A stretch of DNA of 64,000 bases from an uncultured Gammaproteobacteria bacterium. Lineage in GTDB: Bacteria; Patescibacteriota; Patescibacteriia; Patescibacteriales; BS150m-G62. The stretch is taken from contig CAZMSR010000002.1 in the NCBI GenBank assembly GCA_964569045.1, positions 43,272 through 107,271 of the forward strand. Reading direction: 5' to 3'. The notes below the pieces were generated by a model. That model ran no database searches. It worked only from the letters and a program-made list of their open reading frames with translations, and was not told where the DNA came from. The position numbers and the translations under genes are program-made. This document shows positions 16,298 to 46,446 of this stretch, piece after piece (positions within the stretch are counted from its first letter, which is position 1; every line of letters begins with the position of its first letter).

Positions 16298-17665
16298 TTA
16301 ATATATTGTCTGCTGAACCTTTTGCGCACCTAAGTTAATTACGTTTTGCAATTTAGATCCATCAGCTCCGGCATTATTTATCATTTCATGAATTATGTTT
16401 TCCGCAGCATCATAATTTTTACCTCTATACCAACTTTTGGAAGTTAGTACTTGCCCGGCAAAAACACCAATATTTTCATCATTTATTTGCTGAGTTGCCA
16501 CAACTCTTAAAGCTGATGGTTTTTTTGTTTTTCTTAAGTAAGATTTAACATTTTCAGCTTTTGCGGCAAATTGAATAAAATCCCAAGCCTCATTTGAGTG
16601 TCTACTCTTTTTTGAAACTGTCTCAACCCAATAATTAGCAAAATTCATACTTCTACTTGCTCCTTCTATTTGCGGCACCGGAGCTATGCCAAAATTCAAC
16701 TGTGGTGCGCGAGCCTTTATAGTTGACTGATGATATGAATATCCAAGCATCATAGCCAAACTCCCTCTAATAAACATTTCAAGAGAATTATTAAGATTAT
16801 TATTCCAAGTATATACCTCTTTGGTTGAGTTAGAAAAATCTGTATAAAACCTTAGCGCCTCAAGGCCGGGGTTATACTTTTGTGCTTTGTAAGCAGCAGG
16901 GATTGCATGAAAAGCCACTGTACCACCGCTTGTCATTTGAGCTCCATTTTGCATCATTAGTAATGATAATATATCAAATGAACGCTCTACATTTCTTGCC
17001 CCGCCCAAAGCTATTCCAGATTGAATTATTTTACCTCGAACATCAATTTTTGTAAGCCTTTTAACGTATTGTTGAAGCTCTTTATTCCAATATGCCGGTG
17101 GCTCTGCTATACCGGAATTGTTAAATAAATCACGATTATAGTACAAAGCCATAGTATCTACCGACAAAGGAAGGCCATACACCTTACCGCCAATAATGAC
17201 ATCATTAAAAACAGTATCAGCAAAATTATTTTTAATTTGAGTTAGAGTTATGCTTTTTACTGTTCTGAGTTCAGGAATTACTTCTTTTTTTAAACTACCC
17301 TTTACTATCGGATAAGCCATTGTTATACTAGCCGGCATTACTCTTATTTTATTCTTGTATTTATTAATCCACGTATTATGAATACTAAACATATCCGGAC
17401 CTCTATCCTCGGCTAAAGCGTCCACTATAGCGTCTTCATATTCTTGGTAACGCAATTTTCTATAATTAATATTAACAAACGGATGAATTGCTTTGTAAGC
17501 CGCTATAATATCTGAAAAAGAATCCTCACCATCAAAAACCCTCCAATACTTAAGCGTTACCGGCTTCATAGCACTTTCTGTTTCTTTTGTTGCTATCTTA
17601 CATCCAAAGCCGGAAGTTAATATAAAAACAAATATTAAAAATAATGTTGTTAGCTTAGAAGTCAT
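16298..17665 (-). CDS. ABC-type extracellular solute-binding lipoprotein (sugar-type SBP family 1)
   Basis: Lipobox LTSGFGC after a signal peptide. 455 aa with SBP_bac_1-like features. No permease or ATPase gene adjacent. Confidence 0.75.
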   Translation of the reverse strand: MTSKLTTLFLIFVFILTSGFGCKIATKETESAMKPVTLKYWRVFDGEDSFSDIIAAYKAIHPFVNINYRKLRYQEYEDAIVDALAEDRGPDMFSIHNTWINKYKNKIRVMPASITMAYPIVKGSLKKEVIPELRTVKSITLTQIKNNFADTVFNDVIIGGKVYGLPLSVDTMALYYNRDLFNNSGIAEPPAYWNKELQQYVKRLTKIDVRGKIIQSGIALGGARNVERSFDILSLLMMQNGAQMTSGGTVAFHAIPAAYKAQKYNPGLEALRFYTDFSNSTKEVYTWNNNLNNSLEMFIRGSLAMMLGYSYHQSTIKARAPQLNFGIAPVPQIEGASRSMNFANYWVETVSKKSRHSNEAWDFIQFAAKAENVKSYLRKTKKPSALRVVATQQINDENIGVFAGQVLTSKSWYRGKNYDAAENIIHEMINNAGADGSKLQNVINLGAQKVQQTIY

Positions 17666-18027
17666 AATTAATAAATTTTTTTATATTCAATTTAATTTTT
17701 TAGTTTACCATTCTATTTGTAGCATAACACTTTTTCATCTCTACATACATAATATCAAAAAAATTAAGGTAAAAAAAGAGCCCTGCAAGAGTATGGATTT
17801 ATCCACACCCAAGGCAATTGCAAGAACCTACTTTAAATGAAATTTAATGATTTAAATGTTCAAATGCAGGTCATTCTTTTTAAAAAGTTTTACAGGGATT
17901 AATTTTTTGTCTTGTCCATATCCGGAAGGACGACAATCGATTCTAACATTTTTCAATCACAAATTAGGCGACAGCCATCCGTAAACGACTGTTCACTAGC
18001 CTAATCTACTTATATTATACATTAAAG

Positions 18028-18066
18028 TAAAAAAAAGAGGGGTTATCCATACCTGTGGATAACCCC
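18028..18066 (-). terminator. Rho-independent terminator of the high-GC gene
   Basis: Perfect 11-bp stem ggggttatcca / tggataacccc (18039-18049 / 18056-18066), 6-nt loop, followed on the minus strand by tcttttttttac. A second GC hairpin ccgccc-tgcg-gggcgg lies at 18078-18093. Confidence 0.75.
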
Positions 18067-18148
18067 GGTTGTAGCGACCGCCCTGCGGGGCGGAAGTCAA
18101 GACTCAAGAGCCAATATTCAAAAGGCTCAAGGGTTCAATGTTCAATGG

Positions 18149-18985
18149 TCAATTACTGCGGACCAAGAACACCGAGGCCGACCCATAGCGCGAGTAGAAG
18201 TAGTCGACCCGGTTAGCGCCAAAGCCCAGGCGACCGTCGTCGAAGTCGAAGAGAGGCGCGAACGAGAAATCGCCACCGACGTCAGGTGCGTACTTATCCC
18301 CTGGGCAGTCGATGAACAAGTTCTCATGGGCCACGAGACGCTCGGGATGAGTTGCGAGCATGGAAACGATAACAAATGCTCCTAGACCGTATTCTTCGAC
18401 GGGAAACTCATCGCACACCTTGCGCACGCTCTTTCCGCGATGGAGGAAGCCGAATTGCGCCCAGATAACCCAGTAATCACCCGTCTGGGTTTTCCCGAGT
18501 TCATCGTAGAGCTCACGGGTCCTCTGACTCTCCCGCAAATACTTTGGTCCGAGGTTGTCTCCCCGATAGTTGTGGAAGTTGCGCTGGCCCGCGATAATGG
18601 CGAATATGGCCTTGAGAGCCGTGCCGTACTCGTCGGCCATGCGTTTCCACTTCGGGATGATGAAAAGAGCCTCTGCTCCCTTGGGGCGTTCTTTCGCTAA
18701 CTCCTCGGCCAATTCAAGCACGCCGTCGGTGGAGAGCCTGGGAAGCGTCTCACTCCAAAAGGCGAGCTGGTCGGCAGGGGATTTGGGCTCGTAACCCTTG
18801 GGGTAGCCGTAGTTGGACTCGGTTACCTCGTTGGCGTAACGACCGCGTGGTTTCTGCTCCTCCTCTTTTTCGTGTTTCAAAAAACTGGTCAAACGCTCCC
18901 TTGTGATGTGCCCCTCCTTGACTTGGCGCCAAAACTCTTGCATTTGACCAGGGGTTACATCACTTCCGTGCAGTGTGTCAATCAT
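18149..18985 (-). CDS. Hypothetical protein encoded on a ~58% G+C island (no family recognised)
   Basis: 278-aa ORF with a strong SD (taggaggatgttaccATG), its own promoter and its own terminator. The other ORFs overlapping it are stop-poor artefacts of high GC. Confidence 0.7.
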   Translation of the reverse strand: MIDTLHGSDVTPGQMQEFWRQVKEGHITRERLTSFLKHEKEEEQKPRGRYANEVTESNYGYPKGYEPKSPADQLAFWSETLPRLSTDGVLELAEELAKERPKGAEALFIIPKWKRMADEYGTALKAIFAIIAGQRNFHNYRGDNLGPKYLRESQRTRELYDELGKTQTGDYWVIWAQFGFLHRGKSVRKVCDEFPVEEYGLGAFVIVSMLATHPERLVAHENLFIDCPGDKYAPDVGGDFSFAPLFDFDDGRLGFGANRVDYFYSRYGSASVFLVRSN

Positions 18986-19057
18986 GGTAACATCCTCCTA
19001 TAGATGTTGGATAACCCGCGTTATGCGAGTCTTGGTTGGACATAAAAACCTATCAAC

Positions 19058-19086
19058 AGTATAGCATAAATACAAACTAAAGTCAA
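19058..19086 (-). promoter_or_regulatory. Near-consensus sigma70-type promoter for the high-GC gene
   Basis: Minus strand reads TTGACT - 17 nt - TATACT (-35 at 19086-19081, -10 at 19063-19058), about 70 nt upstream of the ATG at 18985. Confidence 0.5.
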
Positions 19087-19239
19087 GCAGAGAGCCTTAT
19101 GGAATGTAAAGTTATCCACATATACACAAGGCAAGACTCAATGGTTCAAGTGCTCAAGCATCATCACTCAAACAAATCACCCCTTAATTACTTAAAAGGT
19201 AACTACTTCAAAAAATCCAAATACCGTCTAATTAGTAAC

Positions 19240-20766
19240 TCATTCCATTTTTGGCCTATACTGTAGGGCTTCGGCTATGTGAGTTATTTTGATTTTTAGT
19301 TCATTATCTAGATCTGCTATTGTTCTTGCTAGCTTGAGTATTCTAAAGTATGATCGAGCTGAAAGATGTAATTGATTAACAGCATTTTTCATAATAGCTT
19401 GGCAAGATGTATTAAGCTCACAACAATCTTTTACTGCCTGCGAATTCATTTCTGAATTAGTTATGAATGGCATACTTGCAAATCTTTTTAATTGAACTTG
19501 TCTAGACTTAGTAACTCTATTTTTAATAGATTCTGATTTTTCACTAGTTGAATTACTTTTAGAAAGTTCTTCAAAATCAACCCTTGGCACTTCTACATGA
19601 ATGTCTATTCTATCTATAATTGGACCGGATATTCTCTTTGCATAATTAATTGCCTGAACAGGAGTGCATATGCATTCTTTTTTTGTATCATTTTTAAAAC
19701 CACAAGGACATGGGTTCATTGCAGCAACCAAAATAAACTTAGCCGGAAAGCTTAAATTCCCTGCTGCTCGACTGACGCTTATTACTCCGTCTTCAAGGGG
19801 TTGTCTTAAATTTTCTAGCACAGGTTTTGGAAATTCGGCAAATTCATCTAAAAACAATACCCCTCTATGAGCTAGCGAAATCTCACCCGGTCTTGGCCAA
19901 ACACCGCCGCCAATTAATGCTGCTCCGCTAGCAGTGTGATGAGGAGAGCGAAAAGGACGCGCTGTAATTAACGCCTGATCACGCTGCATTTTACCGGCAA
20001 CTGAATAAATTTTAGTAACTTCTAAGGCTTCTTCTAATATTAAATCCGGTAAGATAGATGGCATTGTACGCGCAAGTATTGTTTTACCAGAACCCGGGGG
20101 GCCACTTAGGGCAATATTGTGCGCTCCGGCTGCGGCTATTTCGAGTGCCCTTTTAACATGCTCTTGCCCGCGAACATGAGACATATCTTCTAATAACCGA
20201 GTATTTGTAAAACTAAAATTAGATTTATCTATTGGTAATAATTTAGTTGTATTTTCTAAATAATCAACAACTTCTTTAAGTGATTTAACTGGAATAACTT
20301 CTAAATTTTCTACTAATTTTGCTTCGCGTGCATTAGCGCTTGGTACAAAAATCTTTTCTAAACCCTTTCTTTGAGCTTCTAACGCAATCGGCAATATACC
20401 ATTAACTTCCCTTAACTTACCGGATAAAGCTAACTCACCTACAAACAATAGTTTATTAAAATCAATATTAGTACACTCTGCAGTACCTGAAGCTACTAAT
20501 ACGCTTATAGCTATTGGCAAATCATAACTAGGGCCTTGCTTACGAATATCTGCCGGAGCTAAATTTACCCCAACCTTTAATTTAGGGAACTGCAATCCTG
20601 AATTTTTAATAGCATACCTAACCCGTTCACGTGATTCAGATACAGCAGTGTCTGGCAAACCAACAATAGAAAATGACCCCATTTCACCACCACCCGTATC
20701 GGCTTCTACCTCTATTAACTCAGCATCAAGTCCAATAACAGCTGCTGAAAATATTTTAGAAGACAT
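19240..20766 (-). CDS. comM: Mg-chelatase-like AAA+ protein YifB/ComM
   Basis: 508 aa. N-terminal Lon-protease-like domain, Walker A GPPGSGKT, FLDEFAEF, C-terminal Mg-chelatase subunit ChlI-like region. Confidence 0.9.
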   Translation of the reverse strand: MSSKIFSAAVIGLDAELIEVEADTGGGEMGSFSIVGLPDTAVSESRERVRYAIKNSGLQFPKLKVGVNLAPADIRKQGPSYDLPIAISVLVASGTAECTNIDFNKLLFVGELALSGKLREVNGILPIALEAQRKGLEKIFVPSANAREAKLVENLEVIPVKSLKEVVDYLENTTKLLPIDKSNFSFTNTRLLEDMSHVRGQEHVKRALEIAAAGAHNIALSGPPGSGKTILARTMPSILPDLILEEALEVTKIYSVAGKMQRDQALITARPFRSPHHTASGAALIGGGVWPRPGEISLAHRGVLFLDEFAEFPKPVLENLRQPLEDGVISVSRAAGNLSFPAKFILVAAMNPCPCGFKNDTKKECICTPVQAINYAKRISGPIIDRIDIHVEVPRVDFEELSKSNSTSEKSESIKNRVTKSRQVQLKRFASMPFITNSEMNSQAVKDCCELNTSCQAIMKNAVNQLHLSARSYFRILKLARTIADLDNELKIKITHIAEALQYRPKME

Positions 20767-21240: not shown

Positions 21241-21253
21241 TTTTTATATTTAT

Positions 21254-21413
21254 GGGACTGTCGCCAAACTCGCTTCACCCATAAATTGTTAATTTTGGCT
21301 AAATTTTTTTTAAATTTTTTTGGCTTACCTTAGGGTAGGCCTCAAAAATTATTCAAAAAATTTATCTTAAAATTTCCAAATTTATGAATTAAAACGAGTT
21401 TGGCGACAGTCCC
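21254..21413. repeat. 160-bp long-palindrome element, class E2, copy a
   Basis: 19-bp perfect terminal inverted repeat gggactgtcgccaaactcg / cgagtttggcgacagtccc. The arms are complementary over most of their length, with centre ggcttaccttagggtaggcc. Nearly identical copy at 46260-46419. Confidence 0.9.
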
Positions 21414-21548
21414 TTTATTATTAATTAATTTTATCATAATCATAACAAAATAAGCAAACGCAACAAAAGTAAATATTCACCAATCAAAAAAACAAAAAAT
21501 ACCCTGCTTGTTTGGGCATTTTTTGTATATTGCTTTTTATTTTACTGT

Positions 21549-23419: not shown

Positions 23420-23575
23420 AAATATAGCATCGCAAAACAAAAAGCTATACTTCTTTAAATCTGTATTTAATTGTAATATATTTTCAATTAATCACTAATC
23501 TTAACATTTAAAAAAAATTAAATTTTTTAATTCCAAGTCTTCTTTTTTTGCTCTAATTTTATACAAATCTTTATT

Positions 23576-23733
23576 ATACCATTCCCAATTAACACTTCGG
23601 AATAAAAACATTTCTTAATTTTAAGCGAAAAACAAGCCGGAGCGTGAAGCATAATGAATTATGTTGAACGCGAAGCGAATTTTTGTAGCCGAAATTGAAG
23701 AATATTTTCCAAATGTTTAATTGGGAATGGTAT
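23576..23733. repeat. 158-bp long imperfect palindrome (class E3)
   Basis: 17-bp perfect terminal inverted repeat ataccattcccaattaa (23576-23592) / ttaattgggaatggtat (23717-23733). The inner arms are partly complementary. Confidence 0.8.
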
Positions 23734-36155: not shown

Positions 36156-36542
36156 TTAAGAAGCTACGCTAGTTACTATGCTGTTGGTTATAAAGGTTGT
36201 TATTGCCCAAGAGCTTAATACTATTAGTAATCCGATAATGGCTCGGCGTATGGTTGCTAGGGCTGTTTTTATTTTTTCTTCGTCACCTTGGGCTGTTAGG
36301 TAATTGTAACCGGCATATATCATTAAAATTACAAAAATAATTCCTAAAAACCCTAAAAATATTTTTATTACACCGGCGATTATTAAGCGTGGGTCTTGCT
36401 CGTTAAAGCCTGCATTGCCTCCTACGCTTTTTAATCTTTCTAATGCTTTTGAGTCGGCAAATACAAAATAAGGTACTATTAAAAATCCAACTAAAGTAAA
36501 TGTGCTAAAAAATAATTTTATTTTTTTTTTGAAATTTTTCAT
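36156..36542 (-). CDS. VirB2/TrbC-like mini-pilin paralog 7 of 7
   Basis: Signal-like N-terminus, then conserved module IKIFLGFLGIIFVILMIYAGYNYLTAQGDEEKIKTALATIRRAIIGLLIVLSSWAI. ATGA overlap with the upstream paralog. Confidence 0.7.
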   Translation of the reverse strand: MKNFKKKIKLFFSTFTLVGFLIVPYFVFADSKALERLKSVGGNAGFNEQDPRLIIAGVIKIFLGFLGIIFVILMIYAGYNYLTAQGDEEKIKTALATIRRAIIGLLIVLSSWAITTFITNSIVTSVAS

Positions 36543-36922
36543 ACAAATTGCTCTATAATAAACACACTAATAGCATACGCACTCATTACGATTAATAGTC
36601 CGATTATTGCTTTTTGAATTGTGCCGACAGCATTTTTTATTTCTTCTTCATTACCCCGTGCCATCATATACTTATAACCGCCATATATTATTAAAATTAC
36701 AAAAATAATTCCAAAAAAACCGAGCACTACCTTAATAACCTGCGAAATTATACTTTCCGGCTCGGTAACACCGGTATCATACCCGGCACCGCCTGTTCCG
36801 GCAACAGTTTCTAAAGTGTTACCAAAAGCATCTTTAAGACCGGCGGCAAATATTGGAACAGCAGCAAAAGACAAGCTAAAAACAACAGCAAAACCAATAT
36901 ATATTAAAAATCTTTTTAGCAT
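36539..36922 (-). CDS. VirB2/TrbC-like mini-pilin paralog 6 of 7
   Basis: Signal peptide ...SFAAVPIFAAG. Module IKVVLGFFGIIFVILIIYGGYKYMMARGNEEEIKNAVGTIQKAIIGLLIVMSAYAI. Confidence 0.7.
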   Translation of the reverse strand: MLKRFLIYIGFAVVFSLSFAAVPIFAAGLKDAFGNTLETVAGTGGAGYDTGVTEPESIISQVIKVVLGFFGIIFVILIIYGGYKYMMARGNEEEIKNAVGTIQKAIIGLLIVMSAYAISVFIIEQFV

Positions 36923-36976
36923 TTTATTTGTATAATTTATTGCGAAATAAGGTCCATATTTATATCAAGCTCCTCC

Positions 36977-37429
36977 TCAGTCAACGCCCCCCCCCGAAGG
37001 GTCAATGCCGGTTGGAGTATCAGCAAAACCGCCAATATTACTTATAACAAAAAGACTAATAGCATAAGCTAAAACTACAACAATAAGCCCAATAATTGCA
37101 TTGCGGATTATTGTTATTGCTTTTTCTACTTCTTGTTCATTACCCCGCGCCATCATATATATATACCCACCGTAGATCATTAAACCAAAAAACACAATCC
37201 CTAAAAAACCCAAAACTATTTGTATAATTATTGTTATGATTGTAAAAGGTGAGCCTGCCTTCAAAGTCGGTACAGCTCCGTATGCGGCCTCTCCGGCATC
37301 AACAAGCCCGCTTTCTTCTTCAAAACTTGCTCTAGAAACATCAGCAACAATAAAAAACCCAATAAAAAATATAAAAATCAAAAAAAACTTTAAATAACAC
37401 TTATACATATTTCTACAACCTAAAAACAA
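36977..37429 (-). CDS. VirB2/TrbC-like mini-pilin paralog 5 of 7 (with extra C-terminal tail)
   Basis: Module IQIVLGFLGIVFFGLMIYGGYIYMMARGNEQEVEKAITIIRNAIIGLIVVVLAYAI plus the tail GGFADTPTGIDPSGGGVD. Alternative start at 37408 (MYKCYL). Confidence 0.7.
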   Translation of the reverse strand: MFLGCRNMYKCYLKFFLIFIFFIGFFIVADVSRASFEEESGLVDAGEAAYGAVPTLKAGSPFTIITIIIQIVLGFLGIVFFGLMIYGGYIYMMARGNEQEVEKAITIIRNAIIGLIVVVLAYAISLFVISNIGGFADTPTGIDPSGGGVD

Positions 37430-37433
37430 TGCA

Positions 37434-37832
37434 TTATATTTCTCCTGTTAATGCTCCACCAACAAACGCTGTTATAGCGTAAGCACTCATAACTATTACA
37501 ATCCCAATAATTGCTGCAATTATTAAATCTTTAGCCTTAGTTATTTGCTGTTCATTCCCTCGAGCAGTCATCCAAAGCAAACCTCCATAAATCATTAAAA
37601 TCAAAAACAACACTCCAACAAAACTTAAAACAACCCCAATAACACTACCCAAAATAGTTAACACAGGAGTCTCCGGCAATTTAACAATATCTTGAGTATT
37701 ACTTAATCCACTCCTTACAGCTTCGGCACCGGAAGGCGAATCTACGGCCAAAGCTAATTGTGGGGTAAATACAAAAAAAAGCGCCATTGCAAAAATCGGC
37801 AAACTACTTAACTTATTAATTACACAAAACAT
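37434..37832 (-). CDS. VirB2/TrbC-like mini-pilin paralog 4 of 7
   Basis: Signal ...TPQLALAV. Module IGVVLSFVGVLFLILMIYGGLLWMTARGNEQQITKAKDLIIAAIIGIVIVMSAYAI. Confidence 0.7.
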   Translation of the reverse strand: MFCVINKLSSLPIFAMALFFVFTPQLALAVDSPSGAEAVRSGLSNTQDIVKLPETPVLTILGSVIGVVLSFVGVLFLILMIYGGLLWMTARGNEQQITKAKDLIIAAIIGIVIVMSAYAITAFVGGALTGEI

Positions 37833-37868
37833 TTAAACATTTACAAATTCTAGTCTTATACGCATCTA

Positions 37869-38102
37869 TTTAAAACTTTTTACAAAAAAGTTCTTAATAT
37901 TTCAAAAACATAAGGTATTTTTTAAAATTTTATAGCGAGCAAAGCTCTTCGGCCATAAAATTTGTAAAAAATGATCTGCTTTTGGTTTAAAACTTTTTAC
38001 AAAAAAGTTCTTAATATTTCAAAAACATAAGGTATTTTTTAAAATTTTATAGCGAGCAAAGCTCTTCGGCCATAAAATTTGTAAAAAATATTTTTCTTTT
38101 GC
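37869..38102. repeat. Tandem 117-bp repeat, 2 copies (37869-37985, 37986-~38102)
   Basis: The copies are identical for roughly the first 100 bp. Each holds the palindrome AACTTTTT-ACA-AAAAAGTT and the hairpin attttat-agcgagcaaagctcttcgg-ccataaaat. The block is flanked by the inverted repeat tctagtcttatacgcat (37848-37864) / atacgcataagactaga (38116-38132). Confidence 0.9.
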
Positions 38103-38160
38103 TTTAAAATCATAAATACGCATAAGACTAGAGCAATCTAGGGATTAATCACGAGTAACC

Positions 38161-38203
38161 TTTAAAACTTTTTACAAAAAAGTTCTTAATATTTCAAAAA
38201 CAT
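38161..38203. repeat. Partial (43-bp) third copy of the 117-bp repeat
   Basis: tttaaaactttttacaaaaaagttcttaatatttcaaaaacat is identical to the first 43 bp of the unit. Confidence 0.9.
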
Positions 38204-38246
38204 ACTACTCACTCACTCGCAATCAATTTAAGATTGCCCGTAATCT

Positions 38247-38765
38247 TTATGTTGTTGCTGCTAGTGTTGAAATAACATACTGCGCAATTCCAAAAGCAGA
38301 CATTATGATCACTAAGCCGATAACTCCGGCTATAATTAGGTTCCTAGCTTCTTCTACTTTATCCTCGTTGCCCTGCGCCGTCATCCACTTAAACCCGCCA
38401 AGCAATATGATAATAACCGCGATTATGCCAAGAAAACCAAGAATCACGTTAATAACGCCGGTGATGATAGTCATAGGTCCTTCTGTACCGAGATTTAATT
38501 GTCCCGCACCTCCACCACCACCACCTGAAACACCACCCCAGAAGCCGCCTGTGGGGGTTACACCGTTAGAATCTCCATTAGATTGATCAACTTCGCAGGT
38601 GCCTGCATCAGCATCATCATCAGTTGCTGCAGTAACTACGCAAATCTCATCAGTATTACAGTCATTATTTACCACACTACACACCGCCTTCACCTCCAAA
38701 GGAACTAAGACTAGTGCGAAAATAAAGGAAAAGCAGAAAAATATATTTAGTATTTTTTTTGTCAT
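38247..38765 (-). CDS. VirB2/TrbC-like mini-pilin paralog 3 of 7 (Cys-, Asp- and Gly-rich ectodomain)
   Basis: SD aggaggtg. Signal ...LVPLEVKAV. Variable region with 5 Cys and GGGGGG. The C-terminal 54 aa are identical to paralog 2. Confidence 0.75.
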   Translation of the reverse strand: MTKKILNIFFCFSFIFALVLVPLEVKAVCSVVNNDCNTDEICVVTAATDDDADAGTCEVDQSNGDSNGVTPTGGFWGGVSGGGGGGAGQLNLGTEGPMTIITGVINVILGFLGIIAVIIILLGGFKWMTAQGNEDKVEEARNLIIAGVIGLVIIMSAFGIAQYVISTLAATT

Positions 38766-38933
38766 AATTCACCTCCTTTCATAATTTTAAGTAATTATGG
38801 GTATTTATTTTTAAATTTGGTTAAAAATAAAGCCCAAAATATTTATTTTTTTATAATTAATAATATTTTAACCTAAATTAGTTACCAGTCTTAATAATAA
38901 AGCAATTCTAAACGCAATGGTAAACTATTATCC

Positions 38934-39356
38934 TTATAATCCTGTTGTTGTTTTCATTTGACCAATCACAAACTGCGCGATTCCAAAGGCGGACATTATG
39001 ATCACTAAACCGATAACTCCGGCTATAATTAGGTTCCTGGCTTCTTCTACTTTATCCTCGTTACCCTGCGCCGTCATCCACTTAAACCCGCCAAGCAATA
39101 TGATAATAACCGCGATTATGCCAAGAAAACCAAGCACAACGTTTATAACGCCAACAATAACCTCTATTGGTGTTTTTGTGCCAAGGCCGACAGCAACTGC
39201 AACGTTCGCTGAAGTTCCTTCCCCTCCCGTCTTCCAAAAAGCAGCATCAGCATCAGTATCAGTATTAGCATTTACCGGCGCAGCAAAAAGAACAAAGACA
39301 AAGACGGCTGCGAGGGCTGTTATTTGTTTTAGGTATTTAGTTATTTTTTGTTTCAT
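38934..39356 (-). CDS. VirB2/TrbC-like mini-pilin paralog 2 of 7
   Basis: SD aagggggtg. Signal ...LFAAPVNAN. Module LGFLGIIAVIIILLGGFKWMTAQGNEDKVEEARNLIIAGVIGLVIIMSAFGIAQ. Confidence 0.75.
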   Translation of the reverse strand: MKQKITKYLKQITALAAVFVFVLFAAPVNANTDTDADAAFWKTGGEGTSANVAVAVGLGTKTPIEVIVGVINVVLGFLGIIAVIIILLGGFKWMTAQGNEDKVEEARNLIIAGVIGLVIIMSAFGIAQFVIGQMKTTTGL

Positions 39357-39407
39357 ATAACACCCCCTTTCGTTTGTTTTTTAATCATTAGCTTGTGTTT
39401 AAAACTT

Positions 39408-39548
39408 TTTATAAAAAAGTTCTTAATATTTCAAAAACATAAGGTATTTTTTAAAATTTTATAGCGAGCAAAGCTCTACGGCCATAAAATTTGTAAAAAA
39501 TGATCTGCTTTTGGTTTAAAACTTTTTATAAAAAAGTTAACTAACTAG
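39408..39548. repeat. 117-bp repeat, 1.2 copies (fourth locus)
   Basis: Differs from the 37869 copy at 2 positions that I can see (tacaaaa->tataaaa, cttcgg->ctacgg). A 24-bp restart at 39525 runs into the stop of paralog 1. Confidence 0.9.
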
Positions 39549-39942
39549 TAATTCCAATCAATTCGCTAGTAACAAAAGTCGCTATTGCAAAGGCGGAAAG
39601 TATTATGGCTAAACCTATTACAGCTTGAGTTAAAAGTGTTTTAGCTTCGGTTACTTGATCCTCGTTACCCTGCGCTGTCATCCATTTAAAACCGGCAAGG
39701 AGAATTAAAATAACAGCAATTATACCAAGAAACCCAAGGATTATCTTAATTACGTTAGCAATAATAACTCTGGGGTCTTTTTTCTCGTCTAAGCCGGTAG
39801 CGCCTGCTAAATTAGCTCTAGTAGCACCACTAACATTATCACCCCAAACATCAACACCGGCACTTACCGGGGTTGCTATAAAAATAAAGGCAAAGGCAAA
39901 TGAGAATAAGCTTAGGAATGTTTTAATTAATTTTTGCTTCAT
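39541..39942 (-). CDS. VirB2/TrbC-like mini-pilin paralog 1 of 7
   Basis: Signal ...IATPVSAGV. Module IKIILGFLGIIAVILILLAGFKWMTAQGNEDQVTEAKTLLTQAVIGLAIILSAFAI. Confidence 0.72.
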   Translation of the reverse strand: MKQKLIKTFLSLFSFAFAFIFIATPVSAGVDVWGDNVSGATRANLAGATGLDEKKDPRVIIANVIKIILGFLGIIAVILILLAGFKWMTAQGNEDQVTEAKTLLTQAVIGLAIILSAFAIATFVTSELIGITS

Positions 39943-40055
39943 AGTTTGGTATATTTAAGTTAAAAATAAATAATAGTTATTAACATATAGTTAATATAAT
40001 AATAGCATAATTATATAATGTGGGAAATATAAAAAAAGCAAAAACTCAGCTATAT

Positions 40056-40111
40056 GGGACTGTCGCCAAACTCGCTTTAATTCATAAATTTGGAAATTTT
40101 AAGATAAATTT
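40056..40111. repeat. Half copy of the E2 palindromic element (one arm, inverted relative to 21254 copy's right arm)
   Basis: gggactgtcgccaaactcgctttaattcataaatttggaaattttaagataaattt matches the reverse complement of 21358-21413 with one mismatch, then diverges. Confidence 0.85.
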
Positions 40112-40182
40112 CTTTGACAAAATTTAATAATAGGCTAAGATAGAATTATAGGGAATAATGTAATAAATTTTAAAAATACTAT

Positions 40183-45821: not shown

Positions 45822-46259
45822 ATGTTATCAGACTACAGCAAAATATAGCATGCGTCAATTAAATTTATTGCATCTACTTTTTGTATTGTACAATTAATAA
45901 CGAAGCTGTCGCCAAATTTGCTTTAATTCTAAATTAAAAAATTTTAGCTAATTCTTGCCACACAGCACACAATCAAAAACATTTTTCAAAAATAGAGTAA
46001 AATAAATTAGCTTTTTACAAGAGATTGAAGTGTAGTATAATACTAGCAAATAATTTTTATTTTGTCAATAAAAATGCTATGTAATGACTACAATTTTGAT
46101 GAAATCATTTAGCTTACCTCTAAATTTTGATTTTGCTCAGCATTAGTATTTCTTTAAAATAAGTCTTCGGTAACAATAGCTTCAAGTAGTGTTGTACCAT
46201 ATCCTACTGACTTCCATCTAGCAGCATGATGCACATCTCATGACATATTCCACCATATT

Positions 46260-46419
46260 GGGACTGTCGCCAAACTCGCCTCACCCATAAATTGTTAATT
46301 TTGGCTAAATTTTTTTCAAATTTTTTTGGCTTACCTTAGGGTAGGCCTCAAAAATTATTCAAAAAATTTATCTTAAAATTTCCAAATTTATGAATTAAAG
46401 TGAGTTTGGCGACAGTCCC
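46260..46419. repeat. 160-bp long-palindrome element, class E2, copy b
   Basis: Same length and termini as 21254-21413. I see only a handful of substitutions (e.g. cgcttc->cgcctc, aaaacgag->aaagtgag). Confidence 0.9.
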
Positions 46420-46446
46420 ATTACCAATAGAAACTTAATGTTTAGC

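What the first reader, a model, noticed from the sequence alone, without database searches (positions are those of the whole stretch)
17798..19120. Cluster of perfect DnaA-box 9-mers bracketing the high-GC gene and its promoter
The consensus DnaA box TTATCCACA occurs perfectly three times in 1.3 kb: 17798-17806 (+), 18054-18062 (as TGTGGATAA) and 19112-19120 (+). Close variants are TTATCCATA at 18043-18051 and TTATCCAAC (as gttggataa) at 19006-19014. With roughly 35% A, 35% T, 15% G and 15% C, my rough estimate is that this 9-mer is expected about 0.02 times in 1.3 kb on both strands, so three hits are not chance. Boxes 19112 and 19006 flank the candidate promoter (19058-19086). Boxes 18043 and 18054 form the two arms of the terminator stem. 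Three readings are possible: DnaA-titrating or DnaA-regulated expression of the island gene, a relic or auxiliary replication origin, or a sequence signature of the element that delivered the gene. No dnaA or dnaN gene is in the window, and gene orientation does not switch here, which argues against the chromosomal oriC.
Basis: partly seen in the sequence, partly recalled or inferred. Interest (0 to 1): 0.55.

Follow-up and report, generated by a model that had tools for sequence, protein, structure and literature searches.

The report
Decayed DGR cassette, not DnaA cluster
The three "DnaA boxes" are real, but the central one is the stem of a terminator hairpin that follows hundreds of related hypermutation-target (DGR) genes in ultra-small bacteria, so the site is a decayed mutagenesis cassette and not a replication or DnaA control element.

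Summary
TTATCCACA occurs exactly at 17799 (+), 18054 (-) and 19112 (+), against about 0.01 expected in 1.3 kb.

The DnaA and origin readings do not hold. The high-GC gene (18149-18985, -) belongs to a large Patescibacterial family of DGR variable proteins. In 67 related loci the gene's last ~130 nt pairs with a template repeat that differs almost only at adenines, next to RT and Avd genes.

These genes carry a conserved 3' module: an array of YTTGA units with an 8-nt period, then a hairpin GGGG-YTATCCAC...GTGGATARCCCC and a T-run. Box 18054 is that hairpin's 5' arm. Its stem covaries and uses sense-strand-only G-U pairs, so it is an RNA terminator. TTATCCACA is just one common stem variant (33/201 genes).

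Box 19112 sits beside the window's only other TTGA array and is probably a truncated module. Box 17799 lies in a second hairpin of unproven origin.

The 1.5-kb island is an insertion between comM and a solute-binding-protein gene. It keeps the DGR RNA promoter and leader but has no TR, Avd or RT. The one SNP seen across samples in this region is an adenine change inside the variable repeat.

The system is known. The 3' module and leader appear undescribed.

The parts
19138..19161 (-). Module A: array of three or four TTGA units (cTTGAgcacTTGAaccaTTGAgtcTTGCc), 80 nt after the comM stop. Probably a truncated copy of the DGR-target 3' module.
   Evidence: TTGA x3 arrays with 7-9 nt spacing occur at only two places in 64 kb, here and in module B, both on the minus strand; 0.25 are expected. 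A module profile built from 66 other loci hits 19161-19133 with E=0.014.
19112..19120 (-). Box A: TGTGGATAA in gene orientation (TTATCCACA on +), 18 nt after array A. It reads like the 3' arm of a module hairpin (GTGGATAAC) whose 5' arm is missing.
   Evidence: Sequence. Position relative to array A. Family 3'-arm consensus GTGGATARCCCC. Homology is inferred, not proven.
19058..19086 (-). Sigma-70-type promoter of the island gene (TTGACT, 17 nt, TATACT with TG).
18149..18985 (-). Gene for a 278-aa protein, 55.9% G+C, with no Pfam domain. It is a member of a DGR variable (target) protein family.
   Evidence: 67 homologous loci have TR-VR pairs with adenine-specific mismatches, and RT and Avd lie next to many of them.
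18152..18282 (-). Region homologous to the variable repeat (VR): the last ~131 nt before the stop codon. Position 18204 (sense-strand A) is C in another sample (D261A).
   Evidence: VR extent by homology to L005 and others. SNP.
18096..18148 (-). Module B, part 1: array of six YTTGA units with 7-9 nt period, immediately after the stop codon.
   Evidence: (E=1.9e-18 for the whole module).
18078..18093 (-). Module B, part 2: small G+C hairpin CCGCCC-cgca-GGGCGG. It is present in a minority of family members, 19 of 67 genes with at least 3 kb of flank on both sides.
   Evidence: It resembles the G+C-rich inverted repeat downstream of VR described for phage DGRs (PMC3240598).
18029..18066 (-). Module B, part 3: terminator hairpin GGGGTTATCCA-caggta-TGGATAACCCC plus T-run. 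It contains box 18054-18062 (5' arm) and the variant at 18043-18051 (3' arm).
   Evidence: Family alignment: 98% of cells paired, and 8 of 12 pairs show compensatory changes. This hairpin type is found 115 times near target stops and 2 times elsewhere in 1.27 Mb.
17963..18019 (-). Relic of the DGR RNA start: TATAAT (18019-18014) followed by the conserved structured leader ATTAGGCTAGTGAACAGTCGTTTACGGATGGCTGTCGCCTAAT (18005-17963). Homology to complete DGRs ends here.
   Evidence: 91 loci carry this motif just upstream of the TR, with covarying stems.
17771..17810 (-). Element C: hairpin GGGTGTGGA-uaaa-UCCAUACUC (17810-17789), which contains box 17799-17807, then a T-run (17779-17771), just upstream of the SBP gene promoter. 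Its origin is unresolved.
   Evidence: Fold. No significant similarity to the module profile, to element A or to relatives' spacers.
17666..19239 (.). The whole 1.57-kb comM-SBP spacer. About 1.5 kb of it is an insertion relative to syntenic relatives, which have 49-219 nt here.

Best explanation
The box cluster is a by-product of a decayed diversity-generating retroelement (DGR) cassette inserted between comM and the solute-binding-protein gene.

Shown:
- The high-GC gene is a homolog of DGR variable proteins of the Patescibacterial DGR clade.
- Genes of this family are followed by a conserved 3' module. It consists of an 8-nt-period array of YTTGA units, sometimes a small G+C hairpin, and then a hairpin whose stem is GGGG-YTATCCAC / GTGGATARCCCC with a T-run.
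- Box 18054 is the 5' arm of that hairpin.
- The stem is maintained by base pairing, including U-G pairs that work only in the sense RNA.

Inferred:
- The hairpin acts as the intrinsic terminator of the variable-protein mRNA.
- By analogy with the hairpin needed downstream of VR in the Bordetella phage DGR, it may also take part in target recognition.
- The match to the DnaA-box consensus is a coincidence of one frequent stem variant.
- Box 19112 lies beside the only other TTGA array in the window and is most likely a truncated second copy of the module, left by a lost neighbouring target gene or by the recombination that brought in the island.
- Box 17799 is in a separate small hairpin and T-run that ends the island, of uncertain ancestry.

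State of the cassette: it retains the promoter and 5' leader of the DGR template RNA but has lost TR, avd and RT.
For: - In L005 the TR and VR differ at 15 positions, and 14 of these are TR adenines.
- 67 loci show at least 80% adenine-specific mismatches, 1281 of 1470 mismatches overall.
- RT and Avd lie adjacent in many loci.
- The exact box occurs in the same orientation in 33 of 201 genes, mostly at +64 to +96 nt after the stop.
- The module is visible by eye across loci.
- A profile built without the window hits 18149-18029 at E=1.9e-18, and in 1.27 Mb it hits almost only right after target stop codons.
- Hairpin covariation: 98% paired, 8 of 12 pairs with double changes, and 0 of 500 shuffles reach the observed score.
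- The hairpin type is specific to target 3' ends, 115 against 2.
- A TTGA array is found only at A and B in the window.
- The leader motif is conserved in 91 loci and truncated in the window.
- The island is absent from syntenic relatives.
- No RT, Avd or TR is present in about 79 kb.
- High G+C is a family trait: the gene exceeds its flanks in 124 of 126 loci.
Against: - The homology of elements A and C to the module is weak. A has E=0.014 for the array only. C has no significant match.
- Three perfect 9-mers remain somewhat surprising if A and C are old, decayed copies.
- The module is more conserved than the protein (about 70% nucleotide identity to L005 against 48% amino-acid identity). 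That suggests a function beyond termination, which I cannot define.
- DnaA binding to the duplex form of the perfect boxes was not, and cannot be, tested here.
- The predicted protein structure gave no significant C-type-lectin match.
Confidence: 0.72

Rival explanations
1. The boxes are functional DnaA-binding sites that titrate DnaA or put the island gene (and DGR target genes in general) under DnaA control.
For: There are three perfect consensus 9-mers. The 5' arm of the family hairpin is quite conserved in sequence, with T18, T20 and C22 near-invariant, although that alignment was selected by a sequence pattern. TTATCCACA is mildly over-represented outside the modules in the related loci: about 24 sites against about 10 expected from a uniform 4^9 frequency (allowing for base composition I estimate about 14). 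Several of these lie upstream of promoter-like TATACT boxes.
Against: Only 33 of 201 family genes have the exact box. CTATCCAC, TTATTCAC, TTGTTCAC and unrelated stems replace it, each with compensatory changes in the partner arm. The 3' arm is often GTGGGTAG, which pairs only as RNA, so a duplex DnaA site is not what is conserved. One-mismatch boxes are not enriched in the window.
Confidence: 0.07
2. The cluster is a relic or auxiliary replication origin (oriC-, DARS- or datA-like).
For: Perfect boxes lie in an intergenic region with AT-rich flanks.
Against: Cumulative GC skew falls steadily through 13-24 kb with no turning point. No DnaA-type motifs are found in the six-frame translation. The neighbours are comM and an ABC-transporter SBP gene. 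The whole region is an insertion that is missing in syntenic relatives. The central box belongs to a gene-linked module found in many different genomic contexts.
Confidence: 0.02
3. Boxes A (19112) and C (17799) are host-backbone sequence and not module relics. On this view they are parts of the original comM terminator and SBP-promoter region that were split or duplicated when the island inserted, perhaps by recombination at a TGTGGATAA shared with the module hairpin.
For: In relatives L174 and L175 the comM-SBP spacer holds a terminator whose loop reads TGTGGATCAACCATG. Window 17807-17752 aligns colinearly with that loop, the 3' arm, the T-run and the promoter, and window 19216-19164 aligns with the spacer's 5' part. 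A and C share TTGCCTTG..TGTGGATAA..TCCATA.
Against: None of these alignments beats shuffled controls: A against C reaches p of about 0.07, and L174 against the window scores 26 with a shuffle mean of 25. The closest relative (L171/L172, SBP 74% identical) has a 74-nt spacer with no such hairpin. Element A carries a TTGA array typical of the module.
Confidence: 0.2

Closest known systems
Diversity-generating retroelements (DGRs), Patescibacteria/CPR clade ('clade 2' of Roux et al. 2021, PMC8144416; CPR set of Wu et al. 2018, PMC5758913)
   Same: The protein is homologous to variable proteins whose C-terminal ~131 nt pair with a TR carrying adenine-specific differences, next to RT and Avd genes. 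As the literature reports for CPR targets, the target has no recognisable domain (PMC8144416).
   Different: The window copy has no TR, Avd or RT within about 79 kb and retains only the DGR RNA promoter and leader. In the papers I could read I found no description of the family's YTTGA array, its sequence-conserved hairpin or the leader motif.
Hairpin/cruciform downstream of VR in the Bordetella phage BPP-1 DGR (Guo et al. 2011, PMC3240598)
   Same: It is an inverted repeat just 3' of the VR in which stem structure matters more than stem sequence. The covariation seen here matches that logic.
   Different: The BPP-1-type elements have 7-10-bp G+C-rich stems and 4-nt GRNA loops, lie 4-34 bp from the VR, and need no T-run. 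Here the main hairpin has a 10-14-bp mixed stem and a variable loop of 3-30 nt, lies 50-90 nt from the stop codon, is followed by a T-run, and is preceded by a repeat array. Its U-G pairs argue for an RNA role and not a symmetric DNA cruciform. Function in homing is untested.
Intrinsic (Rho-independent) transcription terminator
   Same: It has a stable stem followed by a T-run at the end of the gene, and its pairing is conserved on the sense strand.
   Different: Ordinary terminators are not conserved in sequence between genes whose proteins are only 40-50% identical. They are also not preceded by a conserved 8-nt-period repeat array.
DnaA box clusters (oriC, datA, DARS, DnaA-regulated promoters)
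   Same: The sequences match the 9-mer consensus TTATCCACA perfectly.
   Different: There is no dnaA or dnaN context, no skew change and no conservation in syntenic relatives. Across the gene family the 9-mer drifts with compensatory changes.

Membership tests
Chromosomal origin / DnaA-box cluster | Adjacent to dnaA or dnaN, or otherwise at the replication origin, with a GC-skew turning point | tested here: not met
   Cumulative skew is monotonic across 13-24 kb. There are no DnaA signature motifs in the six-frame translation. The neighbours are comM and an SBP gene.
Chromosomal origin / DnaA-box cluster | Boxes conserved at the same locus in related genomes | tested here: not met
   In syntenic relatives L171-L175 the comM-SBP spacer is 49-219 nt, and no exact box occurs anywhere in the four loci scanned (L171, L173, L174, L175).
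Chromosomal origin / DnaA-box cluster | The 9-mer is conserved as a sequence (a protein-binding site) and not as part of a paired stem | tested here: not met
   33 of 201 genes have the exact 9-mer. 8 of 12 stem pairs show compensatory change, and many pairs are sense-only U-G.
Chromosomal origin / DnaA-box cluster | DnaA protein binds the sites | not testable with these tools
   This needs EMSA, footprinting or ChIP.
DGR variable (target) protein gene | Protein homologous to proteins whose 3' VR has a cognate TR with adenine-specific mismatches | tested here: met
   (homology, 35-49% identity). (67 loci; 1281 of 1470 mismatches at TR adenines).
DGR variable (target) protein gene | A cognate TR for this particular gene exists | tested here: not met
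   There is no TR-like match in the window or in 9 kb and 6 kb of extra flank. The rest of the genome could not be searched.
DGR variable (target) protein gene | RT and accessory (Avd) genes in the same cassette | tested here: not met
   tblastn with the RT and Avd of L005 finds nothing significant in the window or its extensions. Orphans like this are common in the family: 31 of 67 genes with at least 3 kb of flank on both sides.
DGR variable (target) protein gene | Inverted repeat or hairpin downstream of the VR | tested here: met
   (window). (family).
DGR variable (target) protein gene | VR lies in a C-type-lectin-like fold | tested here: inconclusive
   The AF2 model has pLDDT 82.7. The best PDB matches have E of about 0.65-2, and C-lectin-like and FGE chains appear only at that non-significant level.
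DGR variable (target) protein gene | Adenine-specific diversification of the VR in populations | tested here: inconclusive
   Only one SNP was seen. It is the only difference in 6.8 kb, and it is a sense-strand A to C in the VR. Four other samples are identical.
Intrinsic terminator | Stable G+C-containing stem followed by a U-run at a gene's 3' end, with pairing conserved on the transcribed strand | tested here: met

The most novel reading that the evidence does not exclude
The YTTGA array plus YTATCCAC hairpin may be the target-recognition signal of the Patescibacterial DGR clade. For example, it could be a repeat platform in the mRNA or single-stranded DNA that binds the pentameric Avd-RT complex next to the VR. 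If so, 'orphan' targets such as this gene could still be diversified in trans by a DGR elsewhere in the genome. The lone population SNP, an adenine change inside the VR, would be a trace of that activity. The match to the DnaA box would still be incidental.
Probability: 0.2. Interest if true: 0.7.

Novelty: new variant of a known kind. Interest (0 to 1): 0.4.

Why it matters
How DGR cDNA finds and replaces its target is still unresolved. The only defined cis signals come from one phage system: the IMH and a short G+C hairpin.

A large, uncultivated DGR clade that carries a different, strongly conserved 3' signature and a conserved leader RNA gives concrete sequence elements to test. The signature is the 8-nt-period YTTGA array plus a sequence-biased hairpin.

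It also gives a simple marker for finding remote or orphan DGR targets in Patescibacterial genomes. These targets are missed by RT-centred searches.

For genome annotation, the case is a warning. Perfect DnaA-box matches clustered around a foreign-looking gene can be hairpin arms of a mobile cassette and not DnaA sites.

Tried and rejected
- Rfam at gathering threshold on the window, and at E<=1 on 17600-19300 and on a complete DGR locus, found nothing relevant. No tRNA or tmRNA gene is present.
- Pfam on the 278-aa protein gave no hit.
- Fold search of the AF2 model against the PDB gave no significant match.
- I looked for a TR, RT and Avd in the window and in flanks reached by walking along other contigs. 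None was found. One look-up failed because the ORF start I chose was not on record.
- I tested whether elements A and C are direct repeats of each other or copies of relatives' comM-SBP spacer. The alignments look suggestive but do not exceed shuffled controls.
- I asked whether C resembles what follows the RT gene in complete DGRs. It does not, but another conserved structured region turned up there.
- I asked whether the hairpin is a general Patescibacterial terminator or REP-like motif. It is not: 115 copies lie near target stops and 2 elsewhere.
- I asked whether the TGA triplets of the array act as in-frame back-up stop codons. They occur in all three frames.
- I considered an integron attC-like cassette. 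No integrase is nearby and the hairpin lacks the attC core sites. This was not pursued.
- Two more relatives (L176-L179) were fetched to find an empty site, but their synteny differs.
- Paul et al. 2017 (PMC5436926) is not held in the library.
Full report
**1. The observation**

TTATCCACA occurs exactly at 17799-17807 (+), 18054-18062 (-) and 19112-19120 (+). Two further copies, at 92 and 31010, lie inside coding sequences.

- Five copies in 64 kb compare with 0.55 expected, and none of 100 shuffles reached five. Three copies in 1.3 kb, against about 0.011 expected, is not chance.
- With one mismatch allowed the motif is not enriched: 21 found, 18 expected.
- The promoter at 19086-19058 (-) and the terminator at 18066-18039 (-) are both recovered by the consensus scan. 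The terminator's arms are the box at 18054 and its variant at 18043.
- The gene at 18149-18985 (-) is 55.9% G+C in a 31.7% window.

**2. What the gene is**

The 278-aa product has no Pfam domain, and the word-indexed search found only 22 relatives. One of them, P0009 at 48% identity, lies next to an RVT_1 reverse transcriptase and a bAvd gene.

- In that locus (L005) the last 131 nt of the gene match an inverted copy beside avd at 89% identity. 14 of the 15 differences are adenines on the template side. That is the diagnostic signature of a diversity-generating retroelement (DGR).
- Pattern-based scans of genome and metagenome collections then gave 160 more loci, almost all labelled Patescibacteria or CPR.
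- 77 genes have a TR-like partner. In 67 of these, at least 80% of mismatches fall at TR adenines, and overall 1281 of 1470 do.
- RT and Avd homologues flank the gene in two recurring layouts: target-TR-avd(antisense)-RT, or RT-avd-TR divergent from the target.

The gene therefore belongs to a large family of DGR variable proteins. This corresponds to the cellular, Patescibacteria-restricted DGR clade whose targets lack recognisable domains (PMC8144416, PMC5758913).

High G+C is a family trait and not a mark of a recent exotic donor. The gene is richer in G+C than its flanks in 124 of 126 loci, with means of 57.8% and 42.4%. An AlphaFold model is confident (pLDDT 82.7) but has no significant PDB neighbour. 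C-type-lectin-like and FGE chains appear only at E of about 1.

**3. What the central box is**

In the distant homologue loci an exact TTATCCACA lies in the same orientation about 77-87 nt after the stop codon. Across 201 genes, 33 have the exact 9-mer, mostly at +64 to +96 nt.

Reading the downstream sequences shows a shared 3' module. In order, it contains:

- directly after the stop, four to eight YTTGA units spaced 7, 8 or 9 nt apart;
- in a minority, a small G+C hairpin such as CCGCC-gcag-GGCGG;
- an A-rich linker;
- a hairpin whose arms read GGGG-YTATCCAC and GTGGATARCCCC, followed by a T-run.

A profile built from 66 loci, with the window's own copies excluded, hits window 18149-18029 at E=1.9e-18. 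In 1.27 Mb of related loci it hits almost exclusively right after target stop codons. A relaxed pattern for the hairpin occurs 115 times near target stops and twice elsewhere. The motif is therefore specific to these genes and is not a general terminator of the phylum.

In an alignment of 57 distinct hairpins:

- 98% of cells pair;
- 8 of 12 pairs show changes on both sides;
- no shuffle or slid control comes close to the observed values;
- many pairs are U-G with the U in the 5' arm, which would be A-C mismatches on the other strand.

What is conserved is an RNA stem on the sense strand followed by U's, which is an intrinsic terminator. TTATCCAC is one frequent spelling of that stem. The others include CTATCCAC, TTATTCAC, TTGTTCAC and unrelated stems such as GAGAGGGTTTGC.

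The alignment was chosen with a sequence pattern, so its column conservation overstates sequence constancy. The unselected figure is 66 of 146 hairpins of this type.

**4. The rest of the island**

Syntenic relatives have comM immediately followed by the solute-binding-protein gene, 49-219 nt apart. The window's spacer is 1574 nt, so about 1.5 kb is an insertion.

Downstream of the terminator, similarity to other loci continues for about 60 nt. This stretch covers a TATAAT box and the motif ATTAGGCTAGTGAACAGTCGTTTACGGATGGCTGTCGCCTAAT (18005-17963).

The same motif occurs in 91 loci, always just upstream of the TR and in its orientation. Its consensus is TAGGCTAATG-ACAGCNG-TTYACGGATT-GCTGT-CGCCGAACT. 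It shows obvious compensatory changes in both stems, for example ACAGCAG/TTGCTGT, ATAGTAG/TTACTAT and GGC/GCC against GGT/ACC. It is therefore the 5' leader of the DGR template RNA.

In the window, homology stops at the leader's end. No TR, avd or RT is found in the window or in 9 kb and 6 kb of additional flank. The cassette is truncated. Such orphans are common: 31 of 67 genes with at least 3 kb of flank on both sides lack an RT within 3 kb, and 65% of those keep the module.

**5. The two outer boxes**

Box 19112 reads TGTGGATAA in gene orientation and sits 18 nt after cTTGAgcacTTGAaccaTTGAgtcTTGCc.

- Arrays of three TTGA at 7-9 nt spacing occur at only two places in the 64-kb window, here and in the module, both on the minus strand. 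0.25 are expected.
- The module profile aligns to this array at E=0.014.
- I therefore read element A as a truncated module: the array plus the 3' arm GTGGATAAC, with the 5' arm deleted. It would be left by a lost upstream paralogue, since tandem targets exist in other loci, or by the recombination that delivered the island. This is inference.

Box 17799 lies in a separate 9-bp hairpin (GGGUGUGGA-uaaa-UCCAUACUC) followed by a T-run, just before the SBP promoter.

- It matches neither the module profile nor the sequences that follow RT genes.
- It aligns colinearly with the comM terminator of relatives L174 and L175, whose loop reads TGTGGATCAACCATG. Neither that alignment nor the A-to-C alignment beats shuffled controls.
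- Its ancestry is open.

**6. Mechanism**

Shown: the central box is a paired arm of a conserved sense-strand hairpin and T-run at the end of a DGR target gene.

Inferred: the hairpin terminates the target mRNA.

In the Bordetella phage system an inverted repeat just 3' of the VR is needed for efficient retrohoming, and there stem structure matters more than stem sequence (PMC3240598). The module here could be the counterpart, but it differs from that element in several ways:

- it has a longer, mixed stem;
- its loops are variable;
- it lies 50-90 nt from the VR;
- it is followed by a T-run;
- it is preceded by the YTTGA array.

The module is better conserved than the protein: about 70% nucleotide identity over 142 nt to L005, against 48% amino-acid identity. 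That points to a function beyond termination.

A periodic 8-nt repeat is more typical of sites for an oligomeric single-strand-binding protein than of duplex sites. Pentameric Avd is a candidate, and I rate that at about 0.2.

**7. A possible sign of activity**

Contigs from four other samples are 100% identical to the window over 2.5-14 kb. A fifth (L180) differs at one position in 6.8 kb: 18204, a sense-strand A changed to C (D261A) inside the VR. In a relative's TR the corresponding codon carries an adenine at that position.

Elsewhere in the window, two of four sample comparisons show one SNP per 12-15 kb. One SNP proves nothing. The chance of a random SNP landing on a VR adenine is well under 2%, so trans-diversification by a DGR elsewhere in the genome is worth testing.

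**8. Verdict**

- The DnaA and origin readings are not supported: there is no skew change, no DnaA motifs, no conservation in syntenic relatives, and the 9-mer drifts with compensation.
- The system (a DGR) is known. The 3' module and the leader RNA are absent from Rfam and from the DGR papers I could read, so I class this as a new variant of a known kind, of moderate interest.

Noticed in passing
window 17963-18019 (-); 91 related loci, e.g. L112:1037-1095, L005:5799-5740: A highly conserved promoter-plus-leader motif lies immediately upstream of the TR in Patescibacterial DGRs: TATAAT, about 7 nt, then GAG-TAGGCTAATG-ACAGCNG-TTYACGGATT-GCTGT-CGCCGAACT. Both stems show compensatory changes. 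It is not in Rfam. The window keeps it although the TR and RT are gone, so a small orphan RNA may still be made.
   Followed up: partly
related loci, after the RT stop codon, e.g. L007, L095, L139, L025 (minus-strand RT), L020, L079, L051: A second conserved, apparently structured non-coding region follows the RT gene: AATCCTCGCAAAACCATC, a hairpin, then ATCCTTTGCGAGGAT..CTTGGATGGTTTTGCGACCATGCCC..GGGTTTAGGTCTT. It may be part of the DGR RNA.
   Followed up: no
related loci L011-L170: In this DGR clade avd is encoded antisense to the TR and RT and lies between them, or divergently beside the RT. The TR-to-RT transcript would therefore contain antisense avd.
   Followed up: no
window 18204: The only nucleotide difference between the window and contig L180 over 6.8 kb is a sense-strand A to C (D261A) inside the VR-homologous region. 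Four other samples are identical.
   Followed up: partly
window 21253-21417, 46259-46423, 40054-40125 (inverted, partial); also L183:4791-4972: A dispersed intergenic repeat of about 165 nt (97% identical copies) is bounded by 19-nt perfect inverted ends (GGGACTGTCGCCAAACTCG ... CGAGTTTGGCGACAGTCCC), so it is MITE-like or a long hairpin RNA. Its end, CTGTCGCCAAACT, resembles the DGR leader's GCTGTCGCCGAACT. A second 161-nt repeat family has a copy at 23573-23733.
   Followed up: partly
window 36186-39756: A cluster of six or more diverged tandem paralogues (185-189-nt repeat units, 62-94% identical) falls within a run of small minus-strand ORFs of 127-172 aa. Their function was not examined.
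   Followed up: no
related loci, e.g. L034:1096, L045:1084 and 7340, L061:7959, L017:1656: Outside the DGR modules, TTATCCACA(GG) recurs about 35-45 nt upstream of TATACT/TATAAT-like boxes in several Patescibacterial intergenic regions. About 24 such boxes are found against about 10-14 expected in 1.27 Mb. These could be genuine DnaA-regulated promoters.
   Followed up: no
L009:7127-7318, L026:7191-7292, L048:1205-1414: Several homologous loci keep only the C-terminal 35-70 codons of the RT gene right after the target gene. Decay of the cassette by internal deletion therefore seems to be recurrent.
   Followed up: no
126 related loci: DGR target genes of this family are about 15 percentage points richer in G+C than their host flanks in nearly every genome (124 of 126). 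This is a compositional peculiarity of the gene family itself.
   Followed up: partly
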